Source: Nostoc sp. PCC 7120 = FACHB-418
Lineage (GTDB): Bacteria > Cyanobacteriota > Cyanobacteriia > Cyanobacteriales > Nostocaceae
Direction of reading: 5' to 3'
Assembly (NCBI RefSeq): GCF_000009705.1
Contig: NC_003272.1
Coordinates: 300,001-332,000, forward strand
DNA: 32,000 nt
The notes under the pieces were generated by a model, which was not told where the DNA came from, did not search any database, and saw nothing but the letters and a program-made list of their open reading frames with translations. Below, in pieces: positions 9,610 to 23,748 of this stretch. Within the stretch, counting starts at the first letter, position 1. Each line of letters opens with the position of its first letter. A program made the position numbers and the translations under genes.

Positions 9610-10296
9610 ATGTACAAACTTTTAATGTTTCGTGATGATAAACTTTTACGCCGCGCCCTTACCCATCGTTCTTATGTAAATGAAAATCCAGAAGAAGGCG
9701 AACATAATGAACGCTTAGAATTTCTTGGTGATGCGATATTGAATTTTTTAAGTGGTGAGTATCTCTATCGCAGTCACCCTGACAGGGGAGAAGATGAATT
9801 AACGCGACGGCGTTCGGCGTTGGTAGACGAAAAGCAACTAGCAAAATTTGCTATTGAGGTAGGTTTAGATTTTAAAATGCGCCTGGGGAAAGGTGCTATT
9901 CGAGATGGCGGTTATCAAAATCCTAATTTACTTAGCAGCACCTTTGAAGCGGTGATTGGTGCTTATTATCTAGATAATAATTCCAATATTGAAGCTGTAC
10001 GCGCAATTATAGAACCTTTATTTGAATCTGTACCCGAACAAATTGTAGTTGTTCGCTCTAATGTAGACTCAAAAAATCGGTTTCAGGAATGGGTACAACG
10101 AAACATCGGCCCAACTCCTCCCAAATACTTAACAGAACAAATAGGTGGTTTTTCTCATGCCCCAGAGTTTAAGGCTACGGTTTTAGTAGGAGAAAAAGAA
10201 TATGGTGAAGGTATAGGTAAAAATAAAAAAGATGCTGAGAAAGCAGCAGCCGAAAATGCTTTAGCTAATTTGAATAAGCAAGAATTATTACCATGA
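9610..10296 (+). CDS. rnc: Ribonuclease III
   Basis: 228 aa. The RNase III signature is NERLEFLGDAILNFLSGEY, and the second catalytic segment is STFEAVIGAYYLD. A C-terminal dsRNA-binding domain is present (KNRFQEWVQR...GIGKNKKDAEKAAAENALANL). Confidence 0.9.
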   Translation: MYKLLMFRDDKLLRRALTHRSYVNENPEEGEHNERLEFLGDAILNFLSGEYLYRSHPDRGEDELTRRRSALVDEKQLAKFAIEVGLDFKMRLGKGAIRDGGYQNPNLLSSTFEAVIGAYYLDNNSNIEAVRAIIEPLFESVPEQIVVVRSNVDSKNRFQEWVQRNIGPTPPKYLTEQIGGFSHAPEFKATVLVGEKEYGEGIGKNKKDAEKAAAENALANLNKQELLP

Positions 10297-10407: not shown

Positions 10408-10524
10408 ATTTTTGATATTTTTTTATCTGGAAGTCACTAAATAAACTCAATTAACGTCCAGAGAAGATTTCCAGTCGCTCGTTTAGCGGTATGCCAACAA
10501 TGTACGGATTATCAATTAGATGAC

Positions 10525-10635
10525 TTATGGTTCTAAGATAATGATTTCTACGGCTTCGCCTGCCTGAAATGGTAAATTTGTCAGCACTAAGATTCCGTCT
10601 TCGGTTAATGTTGTTTCAACTCGATGCGCTTTCAT
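10525..10635 (-). CDS. 36-aa micro-ORF overlapping the stop of the upstream 162-aa ORF by ATGA (hypothetical; sequence style reminiscent of small cyanobacterial antitoxin-like proteins)
   Basis: My own translation of the minus strand is MKAHRVETTLTEDGILVLTNLPFQAGEAVEIIILEP, followed by stop. Its ATG (10635..10633) overlaps the TGA (10634..10632) of the 162-aa ORF. It falls below the ORF-track length cutoff. Confidence 0.3.
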   Translation of the reverse strand: MKAHRVETTLTEDGILVLTNLPFQAGEAVEIIILEP

Positions 10636-11120
10636 AGTGAGTCTATTTTTTCTAATCTAATAAATAAATCAGCAAACGGTTTCATCTGTCGTAAACTTTC
10701 CTCACACCAGTTATCATCATTTTCGCCTTCTTCTAGAGTAAATAATCTTTCTCGACACAGAATTTGTAATATTAGTGGTTGGCATTTGAGTAGGTTAAAC
10801 AGGCGTTTTAATTCTTTCTCCCGTCCGAAAAAGTAACGCGGTTGGGTAATGGGTGCGCCAGTGATGAAGGGTGACGCTTCTCCTGTTGGCTGAGTTTCTA
10901 GTTCTTTATATGCTATTTCTTGCCAGTCTAAAACCAATTTAGTGCAGAGTTCTAGAAAATTCAGATAGTCAATTGGTCTACCACTCAGAAAGCTTTTGAC
11001 TGTGAATAAGCCAAGTCCTGAGTCAGTAGCTAATGACTGCTGGCGGGGATAGCCATGACGCTGAAGTGCTGACTTTACTTTATTAATATACTCTGGTGCT
11101 ACTCGAAGCGATCGCGCCAT
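10632..11120 (-). CDS. Hypothetical protein with an HTH-like N-terminus plus a pre-Walker-A-like FFGRE segment but no P-loop (stand-alone adaptor or truncated STAND/AAA ATPase remnant)
   Basis: 162 aa, starting 36 nt downstream of the stop of the 1747-aa gene on the same strand. Residues 1-70 (LRVAPEYINKVKSALQRHGYPRQQSLATDSGLGLFTVKSFLSGRPIDYLNFLELCTKLVLDWQEI) resemble the HTH module at the N-terminus of many cyanobacterial ATPases. PRYFFGREKELKRLFNLL is the segment that normally precedes a GxxxxGK[ST] motif, and none follows. Confidence 0.55.
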   Translation of the reverse strand: MARSLRVAPEYINKVKSALQRHGYPRQQSLATDSGLGLFTVKSFLSGRPIDYLNFLELCTKLVLDWQEIAYKELETQPTGEASPFITGAPITQPRYFFGREKELKRLFNLLKCQPLILQILCRERLFTLEEGENDDNWCEESLRQMKPFADLFIRLEKIDSL

Positions 11121-11156
11121 TACTCACCATCAAAAAATTGTTGACATGATTCCAAA

Positions 11157-14100
11157 TTAATTCTGACATATAGGGTGATCGCCTGCACTCACATTGCTAT
11201 TATGCTGGAGATAATCGGTGATGCGATCGCATCCTTGCTGCATTAAGTCATCTAAATCTAGATTCCACACCATTACCCCTGCGTCTTCACCGCCACTTAG
11301 CAACGTTTTACCGTCGGGACTGAAAGCAAGGGTGTTGATTTTACCGGGATGTCCTAAGAGGGTTTTGAGTAATGTGGCGTTGGGAAGATTCCACAGTTTG
11401 ATGGTGTTGTCTGCACTACCGGAGGCTAAAATTTCACCGTCGGGACTGAAGCTGAGGCTAGTTACGCCGTCGATGTGTCCGTTTAGGTTATTGATGAGTT
11501 TTCCGTCTGTTACTTGCCACAGTTTGATGGTATTATCCCAACTGGCAGAGGCGAGGGTGTGGCTATCTGGGCTAAATTTTACTGAGGCGATCGCTAAACC
11601 GTGACCTGTGATATTTTTGATTAATCTGCCGTCTGTCTGCCAAATTTTCACTGTATTATCAGTGCTACCTGATGCGAGGAATTGACCATCAGGACTAAAA
11701 TTGACGCTTGTCACTTCGTCATTATGTCCTGTGAGGGTGCGTAATAATTGACCGTCATTTACTCGCCATATTTTAATAGTTTTATCAGCACTTCCAGAGG
11801 CAATTGTTTGATTATCGGGATGGAAACTAAGGGTTGTAATTCTATCTTTGTGACCAGTTAATGTTTTAATTAACTGCTGAGTTTGACTATCCCAAAGTTT
11901 AATAGTGTTATCAGCGCTAGCTGTGGCTATAGTTTTACCATCAGGACTATAACTAACGGTAGTAATAATATTTTGATTTTTTTGAATTGTAGACAGTGAT
12001 GAATGAGCTAATGTTTCTCTCTGCCAAATTGTTATATTGCCATCCCAACCCGCCGAGGCGAATGTTTTCCCATCAGGATTAAAGCTAACACTATTAACAT
12101 TAGATTTTTGTGATTTCTGATAATTCAATTGCCGGATTCTCACGGTTTTATCACTACTAGCTGAGGCTATAACTTTATTATCAGGGCTAAATGTCACATC
12201 TCTGATTTGTTCGCCACGTCCGGAAATTGTTTTAATTAGTGTACCGTCTATTTTCCAAACTTTCATAGTGCTATCAGCACCAGCCGAAACTAGAGTTTTA
12301 CTATCAGAACTAAAGTTTATGCTGTTAACTTGTTGATTGTGTGCTGCTATCGTTTTTAAAAACTTACCGTCTGTGTTCCAGAATTTGATAGTTTTATCGC
12401 CACTGGCTGAAGCAAGAATTTTACCATCAGGACTAAATTTAACACTGGTAATACGTTCTTTATGTCCTGTCAGAGTTTTAATTAAATGACCGTTTGTTGC
12501 TTGCCAAAGTTTAACTAAATTATCTTCGCCACCGGAGGCTATCATTTTACCATCAGGGCTAAAGCTGATAGAGTTTACCCAGCCATTATGAGCATTCCAT
12601 GTATTGATGATGCTGCCATCAATACGCCATAATTTTATAGTTTTGTCTAAGCTACTAGAAACTATGGTCTTACTATCTGGACTGAAGACTACATCGGTAA
12701 CAATATCTGTGTGTCCGGGGAAAGTTTTGATTAATTGTATACATTTTTGTAGGTTATTTACAATTAAACATGAAGTATCAAGGGCATAAAGTTTAATGGT
12801 ATAATCGGCGTTAGCAGTAGCAAGATATTTTCCGTTATGGCTAAAGGCGATCGCTGTTACTCTTTTCTGAGATGCTGTGATAGTCGTGATTAATTGACCA
12901 TGTATATCCCAGAGTTTTACTGTCCTGTCGTCACTAGCGGATGCTAAAACTTTGCCGTCTGGACTAAAACTCACGGCGTTGACTTGTTGAGCGTGACCTT
13001 GCAAGCGGTTAATTTCTTGAGTGTTAGCAATAGCTTGTTGAAAAGTGGCAACTGTTGCTATTTGTATATCTCTTTCTGGCGCAAAAACTTGTTTTAGTTC
13101 TTTTCCCGCTTTCACGCTAGCGATGATAGCTTCTAGCTGCTGATTGGATAATAGCAGCGCCTCTGATGAAGCATTTAAAGCGGTTATTTCGCGCAACTGG
13201 GCGGAGCGTTTTTGAAAATAGGCGAAACCACCGAAACCAGTAGCGGCGATGGCTAAAACACTGATGATGACTACAGCCCTTTGGGCTTGGCGGAGTCGCT
13301 TTTTTTGTTCTCGCTGTTGTTGTTGTCTGGCGGCTAAACAAGCGGCGATGAAGTTTTGGACATCTTGAGATAATTCATCGGTGTATTTGATGTAAATTTC
13401 TTCGGCTTCCGCTAGGCGAATACCTTGTAATAAAAAATCAGGTTGGGCTTGATGGTGTTTCCACAGTGCGGCAGCTTGTTCAATTTGACGCTGCGATCGC
13501 AGTCTACTACGATTTTCCTCCAACCACCAGCGCAAGGTTGACCAGTGGCGGATAAGGATTTCGTGGGCGACTTCTATTGTGATTGGGGAAGGTGGGGTTC
13601 CCTCTAGGGATAAGGGGTAATGGGGAGTGGGGAGAGACGGGGAAGTTCTACTTTGTCCTGCGTCTACCTTGCTTTCTTCTTCTGAATTTATTACTACCAA
13701 CTTCGCAGCCGTTAACGCTAAGAGGGTTCTGTCAATTAAGTCATCAGCATATTTTTTCACTACTAACTCAGATTTCAATACTCTACGTCTGGTGTCTTCT
13801 GTTCCTTCACCTAACTGTGTGAGTGAGAGAAAAATCCATCGGGCGCATTCTTGGGCTTGTGAGTCTAAGCTTTCATAAACTTCCTGGGCTTTGCGTTCTA
13901 AAGCGCCTTTGATACCACCGATTTGCTGTTGATAGGCTGTCAGCGTTAACTCACCAGCTTGGCGGTGTTCCCACAATTGTTCTAAGACAAACTCTAACAG
14001 GGGTAAATCGCCGGCAGAGTGGTTTAACTCCTGTAAAAGAACTTCTACTAATCCCGGTTCTACTTTTAAACCCACTTGTTCGGCTGGGTTGACGATGACA

Positions 14101-16400
14101 CGGCGGTAGTCGTCATCACTCAAGTTGGGGGGAACTAATATACTGGATTGCTGCAATAAGCTAGCTAGTGCTGGTACTTCCAAGCAAGGGCTAATAAAAT
14201 CGGCTCGCACAGTTATCACTACTTTAAACTTATCAGAGGCATATTCCACTGCCCCCAGTAGCAGTTCTAAAAATCGCTGTCTATCTTCACTGGGTGCAAG
14301 GGTGAATAATTCTTCAAATTGGTCAACCACCAACACCACCATCGGTTCTGGTCGGCTACGCAGCCAGTAGACAAAGCCTTCTACACCTTGGTAGAGCATG
14401 GCTTCTAGGTGGAGGTGAGGAGTTGGGTCAATTTTTTCTCCCGGCGAGTGCTGCTCCCCTGCTCCCCACTCTTTTTTTTGAATTTTGAATTTTGAATTTT
14501 GAATTGTTTGCTCCCCCACTTCCCCCACTCCCAAGCTTCGTGCCAAAGCTTCTAGGGGACGTGCGCCTGGGCGGATGCTTTTAATTAGCCAGGAATCACT
14601 ACCAGGTAGTTGTTTACCGGGACGGAGTTGAGCAATTAACCCTGCTTGGACGACGGAAGATTTACCGCTACCGGATGCACCGACGACAGCTAAGAATGAT
14701 TTGTGGGCTAGTTGGGAAATTAACTGTTGAGTTAAGGATTCTCTACCGTAGAAATATTGCGTATCTTCTTCGCTAAAGGCTTTTAAACCGCGATAGGGGC
14801 AAATTTTTAAATCTAAGGCTGGTGATTTTTCATGGTTGTTTGCGTTAGCGCTTGGTGGGATGATTTCTATTACGCCTTGTGTACCTGATAGCCATATATG
14901 CAGTGGGGGAGATGGGGTAATTGGTGTTTGTGCTGCTAGATGGATTTGTAATTGGGTTATCCAGGCGGCTATTGATAAACCAACAGGGGGAGACGCAGCT
15001 TTTAAGGTGGTGATGAGTGCTTGGGCAAAAATTTCTGGGTTGTTTTTGGGACAAGTCGCAGCAATGATACATTGTCCTGTGTCTGAGCTAAGTTGTAAAT
15101 CTTCTACCCAGTCTTGCAGAGATAGACTGTGGGTTCCGGCTGGACAATCTAAAATGATAATTTGTTGGGTGACACAAGAACGGCGTAATTGTTGCCTTAA
15201 CCAAGAACGGCTTAACCAAATATCATCGAATAAAACTAATGATGGTTCTCCTGCGGGGGTTTCTTCCAGTCGTCCACGCAGATATAACAAGACGGTGATT
15301 GGTGCTTCAGTTGTGTATGGCTGTAGTTGATTTTGAGAACGCAGGCAATCTTTAATAGTTTCACGGATATTTTGAGCAGTTGTTGTTGCGTAATGCGTTA
15401 GATATTCTAAGTCAAATGCTCCGGCTTTACCCAAAACCTTACTAAAATCTAATGCTGTTTGTGAGCCAATAACACCCTCAATTGCTAAGGCTTTTCTTGC
15501 AGGAAGTGATTCGAGACTTCCCTGGATTCTGCCAATAATTAATTCCCCAACTCCTTCGACAATTCGCTTTGGTGTCTGTAGGGGATATTCGCTATAAAGT
15601 TCGGTATCTCCTTTACCTCTTTTCTGTTGGTTAATTAACCTTAATTGTTGATTGGTTTTATCTATATATTGTAATGTTTGGTGATAAACATAACGGTACA
15701 ATCCATCAGCCGAAATTATCCCTTGATTATCAGCCGCATCACCACGTAAACCCCGCATTAAATAATATGTAAATACTCCATGTCCTAGTTCGGGAAACTC
15801 CCATGATTGCTGGTCTGTATCGCAAGATAATAAAGCATAAAATCCCTGACTTTTAGCAGCCCGTTGTTGTAGAACTGCGACTAGTTGGGGCGTAGGATTC
15901 AAGCCGCGCAGTGTCATTCCGCCACTATGACAAGCATCAAGCCAAACTAACTGATTTTGAACGCCACTATGACTGAAAAATTGTAATAATTCTTGAACAG
16001 CTAAACCTGTATTTTCTAAGTCATCTTTTTGCGTATCTGCCAAACATAAGTATGCTTGCTGCGTGTTTGGTTGCAGCATTCCATGACCTGAAAAGTAGAA
16101 TAAGATAGTGTCTGTAGGTTGAGCAGATGCAGTAATTTGTTTTAAACTGGCGCGCACATGATTTAACAACGGTAATTCCGCAGCAAAATCATGGTAAATG
16201 TTAATTTCTTTTTGAGAAAATTGCTCTTTAGTTGCACTAGTTAAAGCTTCTGCCAATACCTGACAATCAACTGCTGAATAACGTAAGGATGGTAGTTGCT
16301 TATCCTGGTATTCATTAACTCCCACCAACAGTAACCATAATTTCGGAGCAACTGTTTGTCTGCTTTGGTTTAAACTACTAGTAGCAACAGCACGAGGCAT
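11157..16400 (-). CDS. Caspase-like (peptidase C14, orthocaspase) - pseudo-caspase - STAND P-loop NTPase - single hydrophobic span - 14x WD40 protein (paralog 1)
   Basis: 1747 aa. Caspase dyad: FYFSGHG (H106, codon 16085..16083) and VWLDACHSG (C157, codon 15932..15930). Pre-Walker segment: [22 protein letters not shown]. Walker A is [11 protein letters not shown] (K580) and Walker B is [10 protein letters not shown]. Hydrophobic span [21 protein letters not shown] at 13215..13277. There are 14 units of the (F/Y)SPDGxxxAS...D.T(I/V)K(L/I)W type. The tail is [22 protein letters not shown]. Confidence 0.9.
11259..13010 (-). repeat. WD40 repeat array, 14 blades (two predicted 7-bladed propellers), coding
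   Basis: I counted 14 SPDG-type cores: [168 protein letters not shown]. Confidence 0.9.
14476..14503. repeat. Exact intragenic heptanucleotide tandem repeat (TTTTGAA)x4 inside paralog 1
   Basis: ttttgaa occurs 4 times at 14476..14503. It is flanked by CCCCACT-like units (ctcccctgctccccactc on one side, ctcccccacttcccccactccc on the other). On the minus strand it encodes [11 protein letters not shown]. Confidence 0.9.
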
Positions 16401-16408
16401 ATTTTTAA

Positions 16409-16491
16409 TTGGTCATTAGTCATTGGTCAACAGTCCATAGTTATTCTTCTTTGCTTCCCCAGTTCCCCCTGCTCCCAGCTCCCTAATCCCC
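16409..16491. repeat. STRR-type heptanucleotide repeats filling the spacer between the two paralogs
   Basis: ttggtca ttagtca ttggtca acagtcc atagtta (16409..16443, STRR2-like TTGGTCA) is followed by ccccagt tccccct gctccca gctccct aatcccc (16457..16491, STRR1-like CCCCAGT). The last units run into the stop codon of paralog 2. Confidence 0.8.
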
Positions 16492-19400
16492 AAAACAAAG
16501 CTGATACTCTTCTGTAGTTATATTAGGGTTGGTTGTGAGATAATTATGCAGGCGATCGCAAGCACGGTTGAGTAACTCATCTAGATTGAGGGTTTGTAGT
16601 TCTATCCCCTCCAGGTTCCAGACTTTGACTGTAGTATCATGTCCACCGGAAGCCAAAATTTTACCGTCGGGACTAAAACTCACGCTTCTGACACCGCCGC
16701 GATGTCCTTGGAAGGTTTTTAGTAATGTGCCATTAGGGACATTCCATAGCTTAATTGTGCCGTCATCACTAGCTGAGGCTATTGTTTTACCATCAGGTGA
16801 AAAACTTAAATTGTAAACTACATCACTATGACCCCGGAGGGTGTAGATTAATTCCCCATTTAAATTCCAGAGTTTGATAGTTTCATCTTGACTAGTTGAG
16901 GCTAGAGTTTGACCGTCGGGTGAAAGGTTGACACTCCACACACTAGCACTATGACCTTGTAAAGTCCTGATTAGCCTACCATCTAAGCTCCAAATTTTGA
17001 TAGTTTTGTCAGCACTAGCGGAGACAATGTTTTTGCCATCAGCGCTAAATTTGATATCTGTCACCCAACCATTATGTCCTAACAGAGTCTTCAACAAGCG
17101 ACCGTTTACACTCCAAAGTTTGATGGTTTTGTCAGCACTACCAGAAGCTAATATTTGCTTGTTGGGACTGAAACTTAAGCTCGTTATCCAATGGTTGTGA
17201 CCTGGTAAGCTACGCAGCAAACCGCCTTGCCGGTTGTAAAGGTGGATAGTATGGTCAGGACTAGCTAAGGCGACGATTTTATTGTCTGGTGTGAAACTGA
17301 TACTGGTGACATCAGGTAGAGGAGACGACAAGGTTTGCAATAATTTCCCATCCAGACTCCAGGTTTTCATTGTGCTGTCGGTGCTGAGTGAGGTAATTTT
17401 CTTACCATCATTGCTAAATCTGACGTAACTGACGCTACCTTTATGTCCATAAAAGGTTTTGGGTAGTGTTCTGTTCACAGTCCACAGTCTGACAGTATTA
17501 TCATCGCTACCGGAAGCTAATATATTGCCATCGGGACTAAAACTGAGACTATTGACTTCATGGTTATGTCCAGCAAAAGTTCCTAAGATATTGCCATCAC
17601 GCGACCAAAGGGTAATAGTTTTATCAGCGCTGGCGGTAGCAATTAACCGTCCATCGGGGGAGAAAATTACTTGCCAAACAGCTTCATTATGTCCCTCTAG
17701 AGTTGTCAGCAAAGTACCGTTACGACTCCAGAGTTTGACGGTATTGTCTGCACCAGCCGAAACAATGGTTTGCCCATCGGGGCTAAATGTGACAGCCAAC
17801 ACTTGTTTTGTGTGGGAGGGGATGGTGATTAAAGGGCGACCGTCTAAACTCCACAGTCTAATTGTCCCATCGTCACTGGCAGAGGCAATGGTATCACCTT
17901 CTGGGGAGAATTTGATGCTATTGACACCTTGGCTATGTCCATTGAGACTAAGTAGTAATTTACCTGCACGACTCCAAAGATTAATGGTATGGTCACTACT
18001 ACCAGAGGCGATAATTTCACCATTGGGGGAAAAACTAACACTCTTGACACCTTGGTCATGTCCTTTGAGTGTGGTAATTAGTTGACCATTGCGTTGCCAA
18101 AGTTTGATGGTACTGTCTGCACTGGCAGAAGCCAAAATCTCACCATCGGGGGAAAAACTGACGCTATTTACCCCATCATTATGACCAGTGAGAGTGGTAA
18201 GCAATTTGCCATCTCTACGCCAAAGATGGATGGTGTTATCTACACTACCAGAAGCAATGACTTCACCATCTGGTGAGTAACTGACGCTAGTTACCCAAGC
18301 ATTATGCAGTAAACGGTTGCGTTCCTGAGTGTTGTAGACTGCTTGTTGTAAAATTGTTGCCGTTTGCGTGCGGGTATCTGGGGGGATTCCCAAACTAATG
18401 TTTTGTACTTCCTTCCCAGCTTGCACACTAGTCATGAGTGCTTCTAATTGTTTGTGGGAGAGAAGAAAGTTTTCCGACAGAGAATTTAAAGCTTGAATTT
18501 CTTTGAGTTGGGCGTTTTGGGTTTGTTGATAAGCAAAAACCGCTAAACCAAACGCCGTTAAACCCAAAGTACTGATAATACTGACGGCCCTTTGTGCTTG
18601 TCTGAGTCGGCTTTGTTCTTGGTTTTGTTTACGTCGCCTTTCATGGAGACAAGCTTCAATGAAATGCTGGACATCCCAAGATAATTCATCAGTGTAATTA
18701 AGATAAATTTCCTCAGCTTCTGCTAGTCGGACACCTTGTAATAAAAAATCAGGCTGTTGGTTGTTTTGCTGCCATAAAGCCGCCGATTGTTCAATTTGTC
18801 GATGCGATCGCAATCTACTACGATTTTCCTCTAACCACCACCGTAGAGTTGACCAGTAACGAATTATCACCTCATGGGCTACTTCTATCGTCACGGAGGG
18901 AGTTGTGAGCAAGATATTTTCCCCCTGCCCCCTGCCCCCTGCCCCCTGCCTCTTCCCTCTTCCCTCTTCCCACTCCCCATTCACTACCACTAACTTAGCC
19001 ACAGTCAAAACTTGTAATGTTCTTTCTACTAAAGCAACAGGGTATTTTTTGACAATTAACTCAGACTTGAGTACCCGCCGTCTGGTATCCTCTGTTCCTT
19101 CACCTAACTGTGTCAGTGATAAGAAAATCCACCGGGTGCATTCTTGGGCTTCTGAATCTAAAGTATCGTAAACGCCTTGGGCTTTCTTCTCCAATGCGCC
19201 TTTAATTCCGCCCAAGTATTGCTGGTAAGCTTGTAAGGTAATTACACCTTTGTCTCGATATTCCCACAATTGTTCGAGAACAAATTCTAGTAATGGTAAA
19301 TCTCCAGGGGAGTTATGTAACTCTTGTAACAGCACCTCGACTAATTCCGGGTCTACTGTTAATCCTACTTTTTCGGCGGGGTGAATAATAATTCGGCGGT

Positions 19401-21618
19401 ACTCTTCTTGAGTTAAGCAAGGCGGTAGCAAAATACTTGACTGCTGTAAAAGCTTCGCTAAAGTAGGTATTTCTAAACAAGGAGCAATAAAATCTGCCCG
19501 GAGAGTAACAATTAATTTAAACTTGTCTGGTGATAACTCCAACGCACCCAAAACAGTGTCTAGAAATCTCTGCCTATCTTCACTAGCCGCCAGGGTAAAT
19601 AATTCTTCAAACTGGTCTAATACCAACACTACCATTGGTTCGCGGCGATGATGTAGCCAATGGACAAATCCTTGCGCCCCTTGATATAACATCCCCTCTA
19701 GCTGCATTTGTTGATACGCTTTTTCTTTTTCAGTACCACTATCCACTAAGCAATGGGATAAGCTGACTAGAGGATATTCCCCAGGACGAAAGCTTTTCAT
19801 CCACCATTCTTGACTCCCTGGTAATTGCTGACCCCGGCGGAGTTGGGCAATTAAACCCGCCTGGACGACGGAAGATTTACCGCTTCCCGATGCACCAACC
19901 ACAGCCATAAATGACTTATTTGCTAAGTCTGCTATAAGTTGTTGGGTGAGGGTTTCTCTACCGTAAAAATATTGGACATCTTCTTCTTGGAAAGCTTGTA
20001 ACCCTCTGTAGGGACAAATACCTAAATCAACGATGGCGTTTGGCCGCTTACCTTTAGCATCTGTACTTGCAGGGATAATTTCAATTACCCCTTTTGCGCC
20101 TGATAGCCAAATGTGTAAAGGTAATGGGGAGGATAGTTGCAATTGATTAATCCAAGCGGCGGCTGATAGGTTTGGTTGTTCCTGATGCGCCTGTAAAGTA
20201 GAGTGTAGCGTTTGCAAGAATTGTTGAGGATTTTCTGGTGATGAAGCAGCCGCTATGATACATTGTCCTTGCTCGAACCCCAATTGTAAGTCTTCTACCC
20301 AATCTTGTAAGGATATGTAACTATGTTTGTCTAAAGGACAATCGAAGATGATAATTTGTTGAGAGTATAGCGATCGCCTCAATTGTTGCCTTAACCAAGA
20401 ACGATTCAACTGGATATTTTCTCCCAGCACTAACACAGGTTCACCAGTTGGGCTTTCTGCCAATTTTCCCCGCAAATATAATAGTGTTGTGGCAAGATTA
20501 TTTTGCTGGTTTTCTGTCTCCAGTTCTCTACTTTGTAAACAATTGCCAATCGTAGACTGTAAATCTTGATTGGTACGAGCCAGAGGCCAATACTCAATCT
20601 CAAAGCCCCCTACAGTCCCTAAAAGTTGACTAAAAGCCAGAGTTGTTTGATTAGTTGCTAACCCTTCCACAATCAAGGCCTTTCGAGAGTCGGGAGACAC
20701 AACTAATGCAGGTTTTACTCCCAAAATCACTTCCCCCACACCTTCGACAATACGCTTTGGTGTTTGCAATGGATATTCTGAATAAACCTGAGTATTTCCC
20801 CGACTGCGATTTTGTTGATTAATTAGTCGTAATTGCTGGTTGGTTTGTTCAATATATTGGCGTGTCTGGTGATAAACGTAGCGGTAAAGTCCATCAGCAT
20901 CAATCAAACCTTGTCTATCTGCTGCTTCACCCCGCAACCCCCGCATTAGATAATAAGTAAATACACCATGTCCTAATTCGGGAAATTCCCAAGATTGTTG
21001 ATTGGTATCACAGGAAAGTAAAGCGTAGAATCCTTTACTTTGTTTTGCCCGTTGGCGTAATAATTCCACTATTTGGGGCGTAGGATTGGGCAAAGATGCT
21101 AGTGTGTGGTTATTCCTTGCACCTCTAAATGTGAGACTACCACTATGACAAGCATCTAGCCAAACTAGCTGGGTTTGTGCTTGGCTATTTTCTAAACCTT
21201 GCAAAAGTTCTGGTAAACCTAAACCTGTATTCAATAAATCATCTGTTTGAGTATCTGCTAAACACAAAATTGCCTGTTGAGAACTAGGTTCTAAGATTCC
21301 GTGACCAGAAAAGTAAAATAAAATCGTGTCTTCTGGTTGAGCCTGGTGAGTAACTTTGTTGAAGCTATCCCTGACAATGGCAAGTGTGGGTAGTTGGGTA
21401 GCAAAATCATGATGTACCCACTCTGATTTATCGGGAAACCTCCAAGTTGCATCGGCTAAAGCTGTTGCTAAACCTTGACAGTCAACAGCCGAATAACGCA
21501 ATGTTGGTAGTCTTTCATCTTGGTATTGGTTAACTCCCACTAACAACAGCCAAAGTTTTGCTTTCCCTGTCGCTAGGGTATGAGTTGAATGACTGGTAGC
21601 AACACCGAGTGGAGACAT
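16483..21618 (-). CDS. Caspase-like (peptidase C14, orthocaspase) - pseudo-caspase - STAND P-loop NTPase - single hydrophobic span - 14x WD40 protein (paralog 2)
   Basis: 1711 aa with the same architecture as 11157..16400. Caspase dyad: FYFSGHG (H106, codon 21303..21301) and VWLDACHSG (C157, codon 21150..21148). Pre-Walker segment ICPYRGLQAFQEEDVQYFYGRE, Walker [12 protein letters not shown] (K581), Walker B VVLVLDQFEE. Hydrophobic span AVSIISTLGLTAFGLAVFAY at 18529..18588. 14 WD40 units. The tail is CDRLHNYLTTNPNITTEEYQLC. Confidence 0.9.
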   Translation of the reverse strand: MSPLGVATSHSTHTLATGKAKLWLLLVGVNQYQDERLPTLRYSAVDCQGLATALADATWRFPDKSEWVHHDFATQLPTLAIVRDSFNKVTHQAQPEDTILFYFSGHGILEPSSQQAILCLADTQTDDLLNTGLGLPELLQGLENSQAQTQLVWLDACHSGSLTFRGARNNHTLASLPNPTPQIVELLRQRAKQSKGFYALLSCDTNQQSWEFPELGHGVFTYYLMRGLRGEAADRQGLIDADGLYRYVYHQTRQYIEQTNQQLRLINQQNRSRGNTQVYSEYPLQTPKRIVEGVGEVILGVKPALVVSPDSRKALIVEGLATNQTTLAFSQLLGTVGGFEIEYWPLARTNQDLQSTIGNCLQSRELETENQQNNLATTLLYLRGKLAESPTGEPVLVLGENIQLNRSWLRQQLRRSLYSQQIIIFDCPLDKHSYISLQDWVEDLQLGFEQGQCIIAAASSPENPQQFLQTLHSTLQAHQEQPNLSAAAWINQLQLSSPLPLHIWLSGAKGVIEIIPASTDAKGKRPNAIVDLGICPYRGLQAFQEEDVQYFYGRETLTQQLIADLANKSFMAVVGASGSGKSSVVQAGLIAQLRRGQQLPGSQEWWMKSFRPGEYPLVSLSHCLVDSGTEKEKAYQQMQLEGMLYQGAQGFVHWLHHRREPMVVLVLDQFEELFTLAASEDRQRFLDTVLGALELSPDKFKLIVTLRADFIAPCLEIPTLAKLLQQSSILLPPCLTQEEYRRIIIHPAEKVGLTVDPELVEVLLQELHNSPGDLPLLEFVLEQLWEYRDKGVITLQAYQQYLGGIKGALEKKAQGVYDTLDSEAQECTRWIFLSLTQLGEGTEDTRRRVLKSELIVKKYPVALVERTLQVLTVAKLVVVNGEWEEGRGKRQGAGGRGQGENILLTTPSVTIEVAHEVIIRYWSTLRWWLEENRSRLRSHRQIEQSAALWQQNNQQPDFLLQGVRLAEAEEIYLNYTDELSWDVQHFIEACLHERRRKQNQEQSRLRQAQRAVSIISTLGLTAFGLAVFAYQQTQNAQLKEIQALNSLSENFLLSHKQLEALMTSVQAGKEVQNISLGIPPDTRTQTATILQQAVYNTQERNRLLHNAWVTSVSYSPDGEVIASGSVDNTIHLWRRDGKLLTTLTGHNDGVNSVSFSPDGEILASASADSTIKLWQRNGQLITTLKGHDQGVKSVSFSPNGEIIASGSSDHTINLWSRAGKLLLSLNGHSQGVNSIKFSPEGDTIASASDDGTIRLWSLDGRPLITIPSHTKQVLAVTFSPDGQTIVSAGADNTVKLWSRNGTLLTTLEGHNEAVWQVIFSPDGRLIATASADKTITLWSRDGNILGTFAGHNHEVNSLSFSPDGNILASGSDDNTVRLWTVNRTLPKTFYGHKGSVSYVRFSNDGKKITSLSTDSTMKTWSLDGKLLQTLSSPLPDVTSISFTPDNKIVALASPDHTIHLYNRQGGLLRSLPGHNHWITSLSFSPNKQILASGSADKTIKLWSVNGRLLKTLLGHNGWVTDIKFSADGKNIVSASADKTIKIWSLDGRLIRTLQGHSASVWSVNLSPDGQTLASTSQDETIKLWNLNGELIYTLRGHSDVVYNLSFSPDGKTIASASDDGTIKLWNVPNGTLLKTFQGHRGGVRSVSFSPDGKILASGGHDTTVKVWNLEGIELQTLNLDELLNRACDRLHNYLTTNPNITTEEYQLCFGD
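16612..18318 (-). repeat. WD40 repeat array, 14 blades, coding
   Basis: 14 cores: [168 protein letters not shown]. Confidence 0.9.
18921..18983. repeat. Exact intragenic heptanucleotide tandem repeats (CCCCCTG)x4 + (CCTCTTC)x3 + 2 degenerate units inside paralog 2
   Basis: ccccctg occurs 4 times (18921..18948) and cctcttc 3 times (18949..18969), followed by ccactcc ccattca. The 63 nt equal 21 codons. On the minus strand they encode NGEWEEGRGKRQGAGGRGQGE. Confidence 0.9.
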
Positions 21619-21941
21619 TTTTTTAATTCAAAATTTCCTACGGAAAACTAAATATAAGAATCCGATATTAATATATTTGTACTATTTTGCTTGGACACGA
21701 TAACTCGTGCCGTAGGTATGGGGGGTGAACAGACTCGATATCTTATATAACCGTGATTTTCTCCCGGATACTATATTGACATAAGCTAGAGTTCAATTGA
21801 TTAATTTCGGCTATAAGTTAGGTTTAATGTTGTTTTATACAAGTATGTACCCATAAATTCTTCAAAATGTTAACAATAAAATACATTTCTGAATAATCAT
21901 CAGTAATATAGGAGTCATACTTAATTTCTTAAATACACCTA

Positions 21942-21994
21942 GTGTTGGACATTGCCCAGCGTATCATGATTTTGGTGGGCATCTCCTACCCTAC
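21942..21994. repeat. Diverged, inverted partial copy of the 22465..22564 repeat element
   Basis: gtgttggacattgcccagcgtatcatgattttggtgggcatctcctaccctac aligns by eye to the reverse complement of 22465..22517 (gcgttgggcattgcacaccaaaacccggatattgtgggcaatgcccaccctac). Confidence 0.4.
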
Positions 21995-22398
21995 AGATGC
22001 TGAGATTTTTATGTGCAAGTGCAGGCTATGCCAAAAATAATCAAATCTGATTCTTATATAAGAGTTTGGCGAAGTTATTATGTAACTTTTATCTTGAATA
22101 AAGACAGTAAAAATTAGCCAAACTGGCTACAAAAAACCACTCGCTTTTGATAGAGTATGCACAGTAAAGGAACTACGGGCTTACTCGTTCTATCTTTACT
22201 ATTTTCAAGAGCATTTCAAGCAGACTGATGTTGATTAGTCTGCTACTTTTTCTAACAATATTGTTAGATTGACGATAGCGATCGCCTATGGTGGGCGTTG
22301 ACGCTATCAACTGAGTTGGTAATACTTTACCACAACACATTCTCCTAGTTTGACAAAGCAAAATTACATTATCATCCTTTGTTGATTTCCTCTGTTTT

Positions 22399-22433
22399 TA
22401 CCTCATACAAATTATGTATGAGGTATTTTTATT
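22399..22433 (+). terminator. Strong plus-strand intrinsic-terminator-like hairpin with no annotated plus-strand gene upstream
   Basis: An 11-bp perfect stem, tacctcataca (22399..22409) pairing with tgtatgaggta (22415..22425), encloses a 5-nt loop (aatta) and is followed by tttttatt. On the minus strand the hairpin would be followed by aaaaacag, so it is not a minus-strand terminator for the SMR gene. Confidence 0.5.
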
Positions 22434-22937: not shown

Positions 22938-23295
22938 ATTGTGATGTATTTTTTGACAAAAACAAAATGTATTATCAGCAGAAATAAATCATTCTGCTGC
23001 CTAAATATTTTATAAATTTAAGCTTCACACTTCTGCTATCTGGAGAACAGCTATTTTGAAAATCTTATATTTCAGACTTATTGAATCAATTTAATATCTA
23101 AAGTAGAGTTTACCGAACTAAGCAAATGTGTATTTTCCGTACCTAATGATACTAAGTTTTTTAGTTCGGTCATCATCATCTATTAAGTGATAAAAACCGA
23201 ATTTACACTCACCTGTTTTCTAAATATGATGAGAACAAATGAAAGATTAAAGCCTGGAAGCAATCCCCAGGGAAAACCTTAGAGGAGTCAAAACT

Positions 23296-23748
23296 ATGAC
23301 ACTTATCCGTTGGAACCCTTGGCAAGATTTAAACACTTTACAACGTCAATTAAATCATTTGTTTGAAGAAGATATGCTACCCTCCACACTATTAGAAAGA
23401 ACCCTAACGAGAGTTCCGGCTGCTGAACTACATGAAACAGCAGAGGTAATTTATCTAAAACTAGAACTTCCTGGGATTGATGCTAAAGATGTAGATTTAC
23501 AAGTCACTGACAAAGCAGTTTATATTAGTGGCGAACGTAAATCTGAAACTAAGACGGAAGATAAAGGTGTTTTTAAAAGCGAATTCCAATATGGCAAATT
23601 TCAACGAGTAATTCCTTTACCTGCTCGTATTCAAAATACCAACGTCACGGCAGAATATAAAGATGGTATCTTGAATTTGACATTACCTAAAGCCGAAGTA
23701 GAAAAGAATAAAGTCGTGAAGATTAACATTGAATCTGCTGCTGGCTAA
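23296..23748 (+). CDS. hspA: Hsp20/alpha-crystallin family small heat-shock protein
   Basis: 150 aa. The N-terminal LIRWNPWQDLNTLQRQLNHLF is typical of cyanobacterial HspA/Hsp16.6-17. The alpha-crystallin domain reads AELHETAEVIYLKLELPGIDAKDVDLQVTDKAVYISGERK...AEYKDGILNLTLPK. An AGAGGAG Shine-Dalgarno lies 9-10 nt upstream of the ATG. Confidence 0.9.
   Translation: MTLIRWNPWQDLNTLQRQLNHLFEEDMLPSTLLERTLTRVPAAELHETAEVIYLKLELPGIDAKDVDLQVTDKAVYISGERKSETKTEDKGVFKSEFQYGKFQRVIPLPARIQNTNVTAEYKDGILNLTLPKAEVEKNKVVKINIESAAG

What the first reader, a model, noticed from the sequence alone, without database searches (positions are those of the whole stretch)
10525..21618. Tandem caspase-STAND-NTPase-TM-WD40 giants plus two coupled small ORFs: candidate NTP-dependent sensing and protease (suicide or defence) module
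Seen in sequence: two same-strand paralogs of 1711 and 1747 aa are separated by only 82 bp. Each carries (i) a peptidase-C14 caspase-like domain with an intact dyad (FYFSGHG with H106, VWLDACHSG with C157, at identical positions in both). Each carries (ii) a second caspase-like module lacking the His. Each carries (iii) a P-loop NTPase with the pre-Walker segment CPYRGLxAFxEEDxQYFYGRE, Walker [12 protein letters not shown], Walker B VVLVxDQFEE and a long helical region, which is the STAND layout. By recollection it resembles the nSTAND1 clade of the comparative-genomics literature. Each also has (iv) one hydrophobic span, (v) 14 WD40 blades and (vi) a Cys-x20-Cys tail. A 162-aa ORF begins 36 nt after the second giant, and a 36-aa ORF overlaps that by ATGA. 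Established knowledge: STAND NTPases (Apaf-1, NLRs, bacterial Avs) couple ligand recognition by repeat domains to oligomerisation-driven effector activation, and caspase-fold proteases are classic death effectors. Inference: this four-gene block is one unit in which WD40 sensing triggers NTPase assembly and caspase-like proteolysis. To my knowledge, no member of this membrane-spanning tandem arrangement with these small partners has been functionally characterised.
Basis: partly seen in the sequence, partly recalled or inferred. Interest (0 to 1): 0.8.

Follow-up and report, generated by a model that had tools for sequence, protein, structure and literature searches.

The report
Two caspase–STAND–WD40 giants, decayed neighbours
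Two large Anabaena PCC 7120 genes each encode a membrane-spanning caspase-like protease fused to an NTPase switch and a WD40 sensor, a protein type already catalogued but never tested, and the two small ORFs beside them are wreckage of other genes, not partners.

Summary
Two same-strand ORFs (1711 and 1747 aa, 82 bp apart) each carry:
- an intact Peptidase_C14 domain with His106/Cys157;
- a second caspase-fold module that lacks the His;
- an nSTAND1 NTPase;
- one hydrophobic span;
- 14 WD40 blades;
- a Cys-x20-Cys tail.

The four-gene-module interpretation fails. In the syntenic relative Nostoc parmelioides:
- the 162-aa ORF is an intact 359-aa HTH–P-loop ATPase; the window copy lost 203 codons, the whole ATPase core, between two 13-nt repeats;
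- the 36-aa ORF is the first half of a 73-aa VapB-like gene; its PIN partner and a 777-aa ATPase gene are missing from the window;
- giant B is absent.

Of 25 other loci from the species-representative genome scan, none has these small ORFs and only one has a same-strand tandem pair. No neighbouring gene is conserved, including EACC1. A and B are old paralogs (65.5% identity in the N-terminal and NTPase part).

Each giant is best read as a self-contained, single-chain receptor-protease. Cysteine distribution and flanking charge across 25 homologs suggest the propellers lie outside the cytoplasm.

The architecture, and even this topology, are already in the literature. Function is untested. Interest is low to moderate.

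The parts
16483..21618 (-). Giant A gene (1711 aa): caspase, pseudo-caspase, nSTAND1, TM, 14 WD40 blades and a Cys-pair tail
   Evidence: ORF. Domains. A 93.8%-identical ortholog sits at the syntenic site in N. parmelioides. dN/dS is 0.14.
20734..21561 (-). A: active Peptidase_C14 module (about aa 20-295; His106, Cys157)
   Evidence: Pfam PF00656 E 1e-15. H106 and C157 are invariant in a 52-sequence alignment.
20026..20712 (-). A: second caspase-fold module without the catalytic His (about aa 303-531; LLYLRGK and IIIFDCP)
   Evidence: hhalign module 1 against module 2, 84%, E 7e-6. Motif positions. Structural evidence comes from the B paralog.
18751..20013 (-). A: nSTAND1 NTPase (aa 536-956; Walker A Lys581, Walker B DQFEE at 668)
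   Evidence: PF20703 at 408-414 bits.
18532..18588 (-). A: predicted transmembrane helix (aa 1011-1029)
   Evidence: Kyte-Doolittle 1.99. The N-side flank has 7 K/R and the C-side flank 1.
16486..18312 (-). A: 14 WD40 blades plus the C-x20-C tail (aa 1103-1711), predicted to lie outside the cytoplasm
   Evidence: Pfam WD40. 14 blades. The only Cys residues are 1687 and 1708.
16401..16482 (-). A-B spacer containing heptamer (STRR-like) repeats; no terminator-like hairpin on the coding strand
11157..16400 (-). Giant B gene (1747 aa), same architecture; an old paralog of A that is absent from the syntenic N. parmelioides locus
15525..16346 (-). B: active Peptidase_C14 module (about aa 19-292)
   Evidence: PF00656 E 3e-15. 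The model's best PDB matches are MALT1, metacaspases and caspase-9.
14811..15515 (-). B: second, His-less caspase-fold module (aa 296-530; LLYLRGR at 371, IIILDCP at 414)
   Evidence: Model pLDDT 88.5. The top 44 PDB hits are all caspase family.
13440..14798 (-). B: nSTAND1 NTPase (aa 535-987; Walker A Lys580)
   Evidence: PF20703 at 426-430 bits. NB-ARC gives no hit and NACHT is below threshold.
13221..13277 (-). B: predicted transmembrane helix (aa 1042-1060)
   Evidence: Kyte-Doolittle 2.20. The N-side flank has 7 K/R.
11160..13001 (-). B: 14 WD40 blades plus the C-x20-C tail (aa 1134-1747)
   Evidence: The best PDB match is the 14-bladed cyanobacterial WD40 protein 2YMU, E 8e-236.
10632..11120 (-). 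162-aa ORF: in-frame deletion remnant of an HTH-AAA_16 (STAND-like) ATPase gene. The junction lies at 10774-10786, and Walker A and B are gone.
   Evidence: Alignment to intact relatives. The intact 359-aa ortholog is in L033. A 609-bp deletion lies between 13-nt repeats. dN/dS is 0.37.
10525..10635 (-). 36-aa ORF: 5' half of a 73-aa VapB-like antitoxin gene. Its PIN partner is missing from the window.
   Evidence: Full-length 73-aa homologs in L010 and L033. A PIN gene overlaps it in L033. Homology ends at 10531.
10455..10530 (-). 76-bp orphan encoding NPYIVGIPLNERLEIFSGR*, which resembles the pre-Walker segment of the 777-aa TM-ATPase present in L033
   Evidence: The resemblance was judged by eye (10 of 19 residues) and is an inference.

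Best explanation
The block is not a four-gene module. It holds two independently evolving paralogous genes of Anabaena sp. PCC 7120, each encoding a complete single-chain receptor-protease. Beside them lies the decayed remnant of an unrelated neighbouring cluster.

**Shown**
- Each giant has an N-terminal tandem of one catalytically intact caspase-fold domain (His106/Cys157) and one His-less caspase-fold domain.
- This ~530-aa cassette is conserved, and in other cyanobacterial proteins it is fused to GUN4, PF26309 or nSTAND1 instead.
- It is followed by an nSTAND1 P-loop NTPase with intact Walker motifs, one hydrophobic helix, two sets of seven WD40 blades and a short tail with two conserved cysteines.
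- Giant A is under purifying selection in every domain.
- No partner gene is conserved next to the giant.

**Inferred, topology**
The helix spans the membrane with the N terminus inside and the C terminus outside. The protease and NTPase would be cytoplasmic. The propellers and the probably disulfide-stapled tail would face the periplasm or thylakoid lumen.

**Inferred, mechanism**
1. A ligand binds the external propellers and clusters the receptors.
2. Clustering lets the cytoplasmic nSTAND1 modules oligomerise in an NTP-dependent way.
3. This brings the caspase heads together and activates them by induced proximity. The pseudo-caspase module may act as a built-in dimer partner or regulator.
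4. The active protease cleaves unlinked substrates, probably after basic residues as in the orthocaspase MaOC1. The outcome would be cell death or growth arrest that protects the filament.

**The small ORFs**
The 162-aa ORF is an HTH-ATPase gene that lost its ATPase core. The 36-aa ORF is half of a VapB-like antitoxin gene whose PIN toxin gene is gone.
For: - **Domains:** (C14, nSTAND1, WD40). The H106/C157 dyad is invariant in 52 homologs.
- **Second caspase fold:**
- **Conserved cassette with swappable C-terminal parts:**. The caspase-nSTAND1 chassis carries WD40, pentapeptide, FGE-sulfatase or TPR sensors, with 4,556 hits.
- **Full architecture conserved:** nearly all 26 loci from diverse cyanobacteria, apart from contig-truncated ones.
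- **Stand-alone gene:** no conserved neighbour and no EACC1.
- **Topology:** in 25 homologs the 19-residue span scores Kyte-Doolittle 1.7-2.3. The N-side flank carries 5-9 K/R against 0-4 on the C-side. There are 10-19 Cys on the N side, but only the two tail Cys on the C side in 22 of 25 homologs.
- **Selection:** dN/dS is 0.14 overall and 0.03 for TM plus linker.
- **Remnant status of the small ORFs:**
- **B absent at the syntenic site, and A/B old paralogs:**
- **Literature:** the same architecture and external-WD40 proposal (PMC7475262). STAND-caspase logic (PMC7159879, PMC8195603, PMC13581612). A caspase-STAND fusion (KrAvs12) shown to act by ligand-triggered proteolysis (PMC12642450). 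Orthocaspases cleave after positively charged residues (PMC6426788), and MaOC1 probably cuts at basic sections of its antitoxin substrate (PMC7935541).
Against: - No experiment exists on any member with this architecture. Ligand, substrates, localisation and phenotype are all unknown.
- The lack of cysteine in the WD40 region could simply reflect the cysteine-poor repeat consensus.
- The hydrophobic helix was scored only by hydropathy and flanking charge, not by a dedicated TM predictor.
- No linked effector or substrate gene was found, so the output step is the weakest part.
- Between A and its ortholog the WD40 region shows no sign of diversifying selection (dN/dS 0.10-0.21), which is not what a fast-evolving phage sensor would predict.
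- Co-transcription of A and B cannot be excluded. There is no terminator in the 82-bp gap.
- PADLOC recognises only the caspase domain, not a defence system.
Confidence: 0.6

Rival explanations
1. All four ORFs form one co-transcribed sensing and suicide module, in which the 162-aa and 36-aa products are dedicated partners of the tandem giants.
For: The ORFs are tightly spaced on the same strand (82 bp, 36 nt, ATGA overlap), with no terminator-like site between them. One orthocaspase, MaOC1, is followed by a TA module whose antitoxin it cleaves (PMC7935541). An ancestral protease-TA link is therefore conceivable.
Against: - The 162-aa ORF lacks 203 codons, including Walker A and B, relative to its intact ortholog.
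- The 36-aa ORF is half of a 73-aa gene and its PIN toxin gene is deleted.
- Homologs of the small ORFs are absent from 25 of 26 related loci.
- B is absent from the syntenic relative.
- Even there, the TA pair is separated from the giant by the HTH-ATPase gene.
- The 162-aa ORF shows relaxed constraint (dN/dS 0.37 against 0.03-0.21 for the giant's domains).
Confidence: 0.04
2. A cytoplasmic Apaf-1/Avs-like sensor. The hydrophobic helix is a peripheral anchor or a buried element. The WD40 propellers stay in the cytoplasm, bind a phage protein, release autoinhibition of the NTPase and assemble an apoptosome-like ring that activates the fused caspase.
For: The WD40 region matches Apaf-1 propellers (E 2e-70). 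A 2026 survey describes cyanobacterial caspase-STAND-propeller proteins as the closest bacterial Apaf-1 homologues (PMC13581612). Characterised Avs proteins sense phage proteins inside the cell (PMC12642450, PMC13581612).
Against: - The hydrophobic 19-mer and its basic N-side flank are conserved in all 25 homologs.
- The two-cysteine pattern on the C side fits an oxidising compartment.
- TM plus linker is the most constrained segment (dN/dS 0.03).
- The NTPase is nSTAND1, with no NB-ARC match and no PDB STAND detectable by sequence.
- No PADLOC Avs model matches.
Confidence: 0.2
3. A non-lethal signalling or housekeeping protease. The giants are membrane receptors that process specific substrates during stress acclimation, envelope surveillance or filament and heterocyst development. 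They would not be suicide or anti-phage devices.
For: - The neighbourhood is housekeeping (sigJ, RNase III, ChlD-like, HSP20, HemD), not a defence island.
- There is no linked toxin or effector.
- Purifying selection acts on the sensor.
- Sister proteins fuse the same caspase cassette to GUN4, a tetrapyrrole-sensing domain (PMC7159879).
- A pseudo-orthocaspase is linked to oxidative-stress tolerance in Synechocystis (PMC7889975).
Against: The family is consistently read as part of conflict systems enriched in multicellular bacteria (PMC7159879, PMC8195603). A related caspase-STAND fusion is an experimentally shown death trigger (PMC12642450). Relatives of the neighbouring remnant genes sit in conflict-system contexts (CyanoTRADDas_TM).
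Confidence: 0.16

Closest known systems
Cyanobacterial orthocaspases with p20-AAA_16-TM-WD40 architecture (for example Ava_0039 and Ava_3079 of Anabaena variabilis; review PMC7475262, survey PMC8283722)
   Same: Same order of domains. An intact His-Cys p20-like domain lies at the N terminus, followed by a P-loop NTPase, a single TM helix and then WD40 repeats. The review proposes the same topology, with WD40 outside and protease inside. These are probably orthologs or close paralogs in the sister strain, though this was not verified here.
   Different: Those descriptions are domain catalogues. They do not report the second, His-less caspase-fold module. They call the NTPase AAA_16 rather than nSTAND1, and they give no gene-neighbourhood analysis.
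EACC1-caspase two-gene conflict system (PMC7159879). An EACC1-caspase-Avs12 example has been characterised experimentally (PMC12642450).
   Same: The caspase head is of the same subtype: NCBIfam 'caspase, EACC1-associated type' scores 139.6 and 124.6 bits against a cutoff of 140. In that system too, the constant caspase is fused to STAND NTPases, repeat sensors and often TM helices. nSTAND1 is said to occur in EACC1 systems (PMC8195603).
   Different: The defining upstream EACC1 pore-former gene is missing here and in all 26 related loci. The substrate or effector is therefore unknown or encoded elsewhere.
Apaf-1 apoptosome and bacterial Apaf-1-like caspase-STAND-propeller proteins (PMC13581612)
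   Same: A STAND NTPase followed by two seven-bladed WD40 propellers. The protease is activated by oligomerisation. The caspase is fused directly in place of a CARD adaptor.
   Different: The NTPase is nSTAND1, not NB-ARC. There is no NB-ARC hit and no sequence match to Apaf-1's NOD. A predicted TM helix separates the NTPase from the propellers, so the WD40-on-NOD autoinhibition seen in Apaf-1 is unlikely. There is also a tandem active and inactive caspase head.
Avs (antiviral STAND) defence proteins
   Same: A single-chain tripartite layout of effector, STAND NTPase and repeat sensor. Activation is by ligand-driven oligomerisation.
   Different: No PADLOC Avs model matches. Avs sensors are mostly TPR-like and cytoplasmic. 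Here the sensor is a WD40 predicted to lie outside the cytoplasm. No phage trigger is known.
MALT1 paracaspase and metacaspases (the closest solved folds)
   Same: Both caspase-fold modules find MALT1, Yca1, metacaspase-9 and caspases as best structural matches. Cleavage after basic residues is expected, as in orthocaspases and metacaspases.
   Different: Sequence identity is only 11-17%. There is no death domain or Ig domain. The tandem active and pseudo-active arrangement in one chain recalls pseudo-protease plus protease pairs, but has no solved counterpart in this family.
VapBC-type toxin-antitoxin pair and HTH-AAA_16 ATPase (identity of the small ORFs)
   Same: The first 36 residues of the 73-aa antitoxin-like protein are retained. 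The HTH and pre-Walker N terminus and the C-terminal helix of the ATPase are retained.
   Different: The PIN toxin gene, the C-terminal half of the antitoxin and the whole ATPase core are deleted in the window. The 73-aa protein itself has no Pfam or NCBIfam match. 'VapB-like' rests on its position overlapping a PIN gene.

Membership tests
Peptidase C14 (caspase, metacaspase, orthocaspase) | Profile match to the caspase domain above threshold | tested here: met
   PF00656 at 58.6 and 56.9 bits against a cutoff of 21.4. The PADLOC caspase model gives E 4e-19 and 9e-18.
Peptidase C14 (caspase, metacaspase, orthocaspase) | Caspase-hemoglobinase fold | tested here: met
   Model pLDDT 80.5. The best PDB matches are MALT1, metacaspases and caspase-9, with E down to 7e-9.
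Peptidase C14 (caspase, metacaspase, orthocaspase) | Catalytic His-Cys dyad | tested here: met
   H106 and C157 are present in both giants and invariant in a 52-sequence alignment. Module 2 lacks the His (Arg or Lys in its place) and keeps a Cys.
Peptidase C14 (caspase, metacaspase, orthocaspase) | Proteolytic activity and P1 specificity | not testable with these tools
   Needs a recombinant enzyme assay.
nSTAND1 clade of STAND NTPases (PF20703) | Full-length profile match above threshold | tested here: met
   414-430 bits against 27.1, covering profile positions 1-378 of 379. NACHT is below threshold (19-22 bits against 26.7). NB-ARC gives no hit.
nSTAND1 clade of STAND NTPases (PF20703) | Intact Walker A and Walker B motifs | tested here: met
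   GASGSGKSS and hhhhDQFEE are present in both giants.
nSTAND1 clade of STAND NTPases (PF20703) | NTP-dependent oligomerisation switch | not testable with these tools
   Needs biochemistry. No solved structure of this clade is detectable by sequence.
EACC1-caspase two-gene system | Caspase of the EACC1-associated subtype | tested here: inconclusive
   NF047832 scores 139.6 bits (B) and 124.6 bits (A) against a cutoff of 140.
EACC1-caspase two-gene system | Adjacent gene, usually upstream, encoding the small single-TM EACC1 protein | tested here: not met
   No conserved neighbour gene in 26 loci. No small TM ORF is conserved upstream. Upstream ORFs have no relevant Pfam or NCBIfam match. An unlinked EACC1 elsewhere in the genome could not be searched.
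Apaf-1 / AP-ATPase (NB-ARC) orthologues | NB-ARC type nucleotide-binding domain | tested here: not met
   No NB-ARC hit at E <= 1 on the NTPase module. A profile search of the PDB finds no Apaf-1 or NLR.
Apaf-1 / AP-ATPase (NB-ARC) orthologues | C-terminal double WD40 propeller | tested here: met
   14 blades. Apaf-1 WD40 matches at E 2e-70 and 2YMU at E 8e-236.
Avs antiviral STAND systems (PADLOC) | Match to an Avs or other defence-system model | tested here: not met
   PADLOC returns only the caspase model, HEAT-ARM_XIII (through the WD40 region) and a weak P-loop hit to mad3.
Type II toxin-antitoxin (VapBC-like), for the 36-aa ORF | Complete antitoxin gene with an adjacent PIN toxin gene | tested here: not met
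   The window keeps 36 of 73 codons and no PIN gene. The intact pair exists in L033, with PIN PF01850 at E 1e-10.
P-loop ATPase (AAA_16 / STAND-like), for the 162-aa ORF | Walker A and Walker B core | tested here: not met
   No Pfam hit for the 162-aa product. The alignment shows the core deleted. The intact L033 ortholog hits AAA_16 at E 3e-9.

The most novel reading that the evidence does not exclude
The giants are outside-in 'death receptors' built on a STAND switch. Periplasmic double propellers, capped by a disulfide-stapled tail, would detect an extracellular cue such as a phage particle, a peptide signal or debris from a lysed neighbour in the filament. Clustering across a single TM helix would then drive NTP-dependent assembly of cytoplasmic nSTAND1 modules. 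That assembly would fire a caspase whose built-in pseudo-caspase domain serves as its dimer partner. This would be a transmembrane mode of STAND signalling, with sensor and switch in different compartments, and no STAND protein has been shown experimentally to work this way.
Probability: 0.25. Interest if true: 0.65.

Novelty: already known. Interest (0 to 1): 0.27.

Why it matters
Whether caspase homologues execute regulated cell death or immunity in multicellular cyanobacteria is still open. Anabaena PCC 7120 is genetically tractable, so these two genes are reasonable knockout targets.

This analysis adds three things:
- It removes a false lead. The small ORFs are gene wreckage.
- It shows that the orthocaspase 'body' shared with GUN4-type and other orthocaspases is a tandem of an active and an inactive caspase fold.
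- It gives comparative support for an external sensor, which would make these proteins transmembrane STAND receptors.

None of this changes the classification. The family, its domain order and its proposed role are already in the literature.

Tried and rejected
- **PADLOC** on all four products found only a caspase-domain model and no defence system.
- **EACC1 partner search.** All-against-all clustering of flanking ORFs in 27 loci, inspection of the upstream 2 kb, and Pfam and NCBIfam scans found nothing.
- **Recent repeat homogenisation or hypervariability in the WD40 DNA.** Tandem Repeats Finder found no roughly 123-bp array. dN/dS in the WD40 halves is 0.10-0.21. There is no sign of diversifying selection at this depth.
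- **Promoter and terminator scan.** Counts do not exceed shuffles, so it says nothing on co-transcription.
- **Mobile-element insertion of B.** There are no flanking direct repeats, and the 486 bp that occupy the site in L033 have no match in the window. The direction of the change (insertion or loss) is therefore inferred only from other syntenic loci that lack a second copy.
- **Neighbour-joining tree.** Four sequences were badly trimmed by my script and form artefactual long branches. Only the placement of A, B and the well-aligned taxa is used.
- **Literature search** for all0283 and all0284 returned nothing, so the locus tags of the giants are left unassigned.
- **The search for homologous proteins** never returns proteins longer than about 1050 aa, so full-length relatives had to come from the genome scan.
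- **Profile search of the PDB with the NTPase module** gave only generic P-loop noise.

Full report
**Source and setting**

The window comes from the chromosome of Anabaena (Nostoc) sp. PCC 7120.
- The exact 162-aa protein occurs on a 6,413,771-bp contig and is named from 'Anabaena sp. FACHB-709'.
- The published qPCR primers for sigJ (alr0277; PMC2779892) match exactly inside the window's sigma-factor gene at 6467-6486 and 6683-6702.
- The RNase III gene at 9610-10296 is therefore alr0280 (PMC10989914).
- The surroundings are ordinary chromosomal genes: a giant RTX/cadherin protein, sigJ, a ChlD-like AAA+/VWA protein, Uma2, RNase III, an SMR transporter, HSP20, HemD, a HAD hydrolase, a nucleoside hydrolase and a cellulase.

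**Check of the observation**

- The four minus-strand ORFs lie at the stated coordinates, with an 82-bp gap, a 36-nt gap and an ATGA overlap.
- Both giants carry FYFSGHG (His106), VWLDACHSG (Cys157), [27 protein letters not shown] (Lys581 in A, Lys580 in B) and VVLV.DQFEE.
- Pfam gives Peptidase_C14 (E 1e-15 and 3e-15), nSTAND1 over the whole 379-position profile (414-430 bits against a cutoff of 27.1) and 13-14 WD40 stretches.
- I count 14 blades in each at a 41-42-residue period. The regex finds 14 in A and 12 in B. B's other two read FNPDGK and FHPDNQ.
- The tail is C-x20-C in both.
NB-ARC gives no hit and NACHT stays below threshold.

**The second caspase-like module**

Residues about 300-530 have no Pfam match.
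- Profiles of module 1 and module 2, built from 114 homologs, align at 84% probability (E 7e-6). FYFSGHG aligns with LLYLRG(R/K), and VWLDACHSG with IIILD-CP.
- An AlphaFold model of residues 1-535 of B (pLDDT 80.5, pTM 0.75) shows the same strand-helix order twice.
- A model of module 2 alone (pLDDT 88.5) finds only caspase-family structures among its top 44 PDB matches: MALT1, Yca1, metacaspase-9 and caspases 1, 3, 4, 6, 7, 8 and 9 (E about 2e-6, TM about 0.6).

So the head is a tandem of an active and a His-less caspase fold.

This ~530-aa cassette is a conserved unit. It recurs at 52-60% identity over 97-100% of its length in cyanobacterial proteins whose C-terminal parts are GUN4, PF26309 (not named in the Pfam copy available) or nSTAND1.

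**The small ORFs are remnants**

Homologs of the 162-aa ORF mostly cover only its first 72% and include proteins annotated as ATP-binding, AAA_16 or nSTAND1.

Intact relatives read ...FFGREKELKRLFNLLKRxPL-QNAAIIGxxRSGKTSLL...(Walker B)...WPxL-LQILCRERLFxLEEGE... The window ORF jumps straight from ...LLKCQPL to ILQILCRERLFTLEEGEND.

The decisive comparison is locus L033 from Nostoc parmelioides FACHB-3921. It is syntenic with the window at 92-96% nucleotide identity on both sides. Downstream of the giant it carries:
- an intact 359-aa HTH-AAA_16 ATPase;
- a 73-aa protein beginning MKAHRIETKLTEDG...;
- an overlapping PIN-domain gene;
- a 777-aa multi-TM ATPase;
- then RNase III.

In the window:
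- The ATPase has lost 609 bp (203 codons, in frame) between two imperfect 13-nt direct repeats, AACGCCATCCCCT and AATGTCATCCACT.
- The 73-aa gene is cut after codon 35, and a stop follows one codon later.
- A 76-bp orphan follows. It encodes NPYIVGIPLNERLEIFSGR*, which resembles the pre-Walker segment of the lost 777-aa ATPase by eye.
- Homology with L033 resumes just after the 777-aa gene's stop, upstream of RNase III.
- The retained parts of the 162-aa ORF show relaxed constraint (dN/dS 0.37), compared with 0.03-0.10 for the neighbouring genes.

A second Nostoc (CHAB 5784, L010) has the same gene pair with a different internal deletion in the ATPase. This gene family decays repeatedly.

**The tandem pair is not a conserved unit**

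A scan of one genome per species with the nSTAND1-TM region returned 26 loci. They come from Nostocales, Coleofasciculus, Aphanothece, Chroococcidiopsidaceae, Oscillatoria and Acaryochloris.
- Apart from a few loci cut by contig ends, all show the full order: caspase, module 2, nSTAND1, TM-linker and WD40, usually with the Cys tail.
- Only one (Scytonematopsis) has a same-strand tandem pair, and those two copies are each other's closest relatives.
- One (Amazonocrinis) has a convergent pair.
- Homologs of the small ORFs occur only in L033.
- Clustering all flanking ORFs found no conserved neighbour. The exceptions are shadow ORFs inside the giant itself and an SMR gene shared by six close relatives.
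- Inspecting the 2 kb upstream of each giant showed no conserved small TM protein.

L033 has the ortholog of A (93.8% amino-acid identity, same length) but no B. A 5.3-kb segment holding B replaces 486 unrelated bp.

In the N-terminal and NTPase part, B is 65.5% identical to A. It is about 68% identical to the Coleofasciculus and Aphanothece proteins. A sits in a Nostocales clade at 74-94%. A and B are therefore old paralogs brought together in this lineage.

**Membrane topology**

Across 25 homologs:
- The hydrophobic 19-mer scores Kyte-Doolittle 1.7-2.3.
- Its N-side 20 residues carry 5-9 Lys/Arg, against 0-4 on the C-side.
- The roughly 1000 residues before it hold 10-19 cysteines.
- The roughly 700 residues after it hold only the two tail cysteines in 22 of 25 homologs. 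B has one extra C-x8-C pair in a loop insertion.
- The TM-plus-linker segment is the most constrained part of A (dN/dS 0.03).

This fits an N-in, C-out protein with external propellers and a tail disulfide. The review PMC7475262 already proposed this from TM prediction for Ava_0039 and Ava_3079.

There are two caveats. Cyanobacterial WD40 consensus repeats are cysteine-poor anyway. I also had no dedicated TM predictor.

**Function and mechanism**

Giant A is maintained by purifying selection in all domains (dN/dS 0.14 overall). Both giants keep every catalytic motif.

The best-supported reading is a single-chain receptor-protease. The external WD40 propellers bind a ligand. Clustering permits NTP-dependent oligomerisation of nSTAND1. 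The caspase heads are then activated by proximity. All of these steps are inferred.

Supporting precedent:
- The general STAND logic (PMC7159879).
- A caspase fused to a STAND (KrAvs12) that, once triggered by a phage protein, cleaves its linked EACC1 pore-former (PMC12642450).
- The orthocaspase MaOC1, which cleaves a neighbouring antitoxin (PMC7935541).

Here no linked substrate exists, so the output is unknown. The housekeeping neighbourhood and the lack of diversifying selection in the sensor keep a non-lethal signalling role open.

**Comparison with what is known**
- The caspase-nSTAND1 chassis is a large, named family: 4,556 hits at E <= 1e-10. NCBI names include 'nSTAND1 domain-containing NTPase' and 'caspase family protein'. 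The sensors are interchangeable: WD40, pentapeptide repeats, FGE-sulfatase or TPR.
- nSTAND1 was defined in PMC8195603, and the EACC1-caspase system in PMC7159879.
- The caspase head scores just under the NCBIfam 'EACC1-associated caspase' cutoff, but the defining EACC1 gene is absent. These are not members of that two-gene system as defined.
- They are not NB-ARC/Apaf-1 orthologues by sequence, although the propellers resemble Apaf-1's.
- No PADLOC defence system is recognised.

**Verdict**

The domain interpretation is right. The four-gene-module idea is wrong.

The giants belong to an architecture already described in silico, including in the sister strain, and never tested experimentally. 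The modest additions here are the pseudo-caspase module, comparative support for the external sensor, and the reconstruction of how the two small ORFs arose by deletion.

Noticed in passing
window 14476-14505 and 18921-18950; also 16401-16482: Perfect heptanucleotide tandem repeats lie in frame inside the giants' coding sequence. TTTTGAA x4.3 sits in a B-specific loop insert, and CCCCCTG x4.3 encodes '...QGAGGRGQG...' in an A-specific insert. The A-B spacer holds TGACCAA/TGACTAA heptamers. These look like cyanobacterial STRR-type repeats that have expanded within surface loops of the NTPase.
   Followed up: partly
P0005 (L010), P0009 (L007), P0017, P0022; window 10632-11120: The HTH-AAA_16 ATPase family of the 162-aa ORF carries different internal deletions, fusions or frameshifts in several unrelated genomes. 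This suggests recurrent decay or recombination among paralogous ATPase genes.
   Followed up: partly
L033 14070-18158: N. parmelioides has an intact four-gene cluster at this site: an HTH-AAA_16 ATPase, a 73-aa VapB-like gene, a PIN gene and a 777-aa multi-TM ATPase with a weak nSTAND1 match. In another genome a relative of the HTH-ATPase sits next to a CyanoTRADDas_TM gene (L007). The cluster may itself be a conflict system.
   Followed up: partly
window 21619-22430: About 800 bp upstream of giant A has no credible ORF. It is nevertheless as conserved with N. parmelioides (92.6%) as the coding sequence. It contains two strong plus-strand hairpins with T tails at 22219-22244 and 22399-22425. 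It could hold a long 5' leader, an sRNA or terminators for the convergent side.
   Followed up: no
window 23243-23301 (+): Rfam match to the Avashort RNA thermometer (91 bits against a gathering score of 88), overlapping the start of the HSP20 gene at 23296-23748. This is a known element and ordinary.
   Followed up: yes
window 6021-6806, 9610-10296: The sigma-factor gene is sigJ (alr0277), confirmed by exact matches to published primers. The RNase III gene is alr0280, which has been studied experimentally.
   Followed up: yes
window 39-5573 (+): This is part of a very large secreted-type protein with lamin-tail, DUF3616, cadherin-like/Big_9 and RTX repeats. It is 2348 aa in the full record and is cut by the window start.
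   Followed up: no
B residues 1211-1220 (window about 12741-12770): B has a blade insertion with an extra C-x8-C pair ([16 protein letters not shown]). Together with the tail pair, these are the only cysteines beyond the TM helix. The even number fits a second disulfide in an oxidising compartment.
   Followed up: partly
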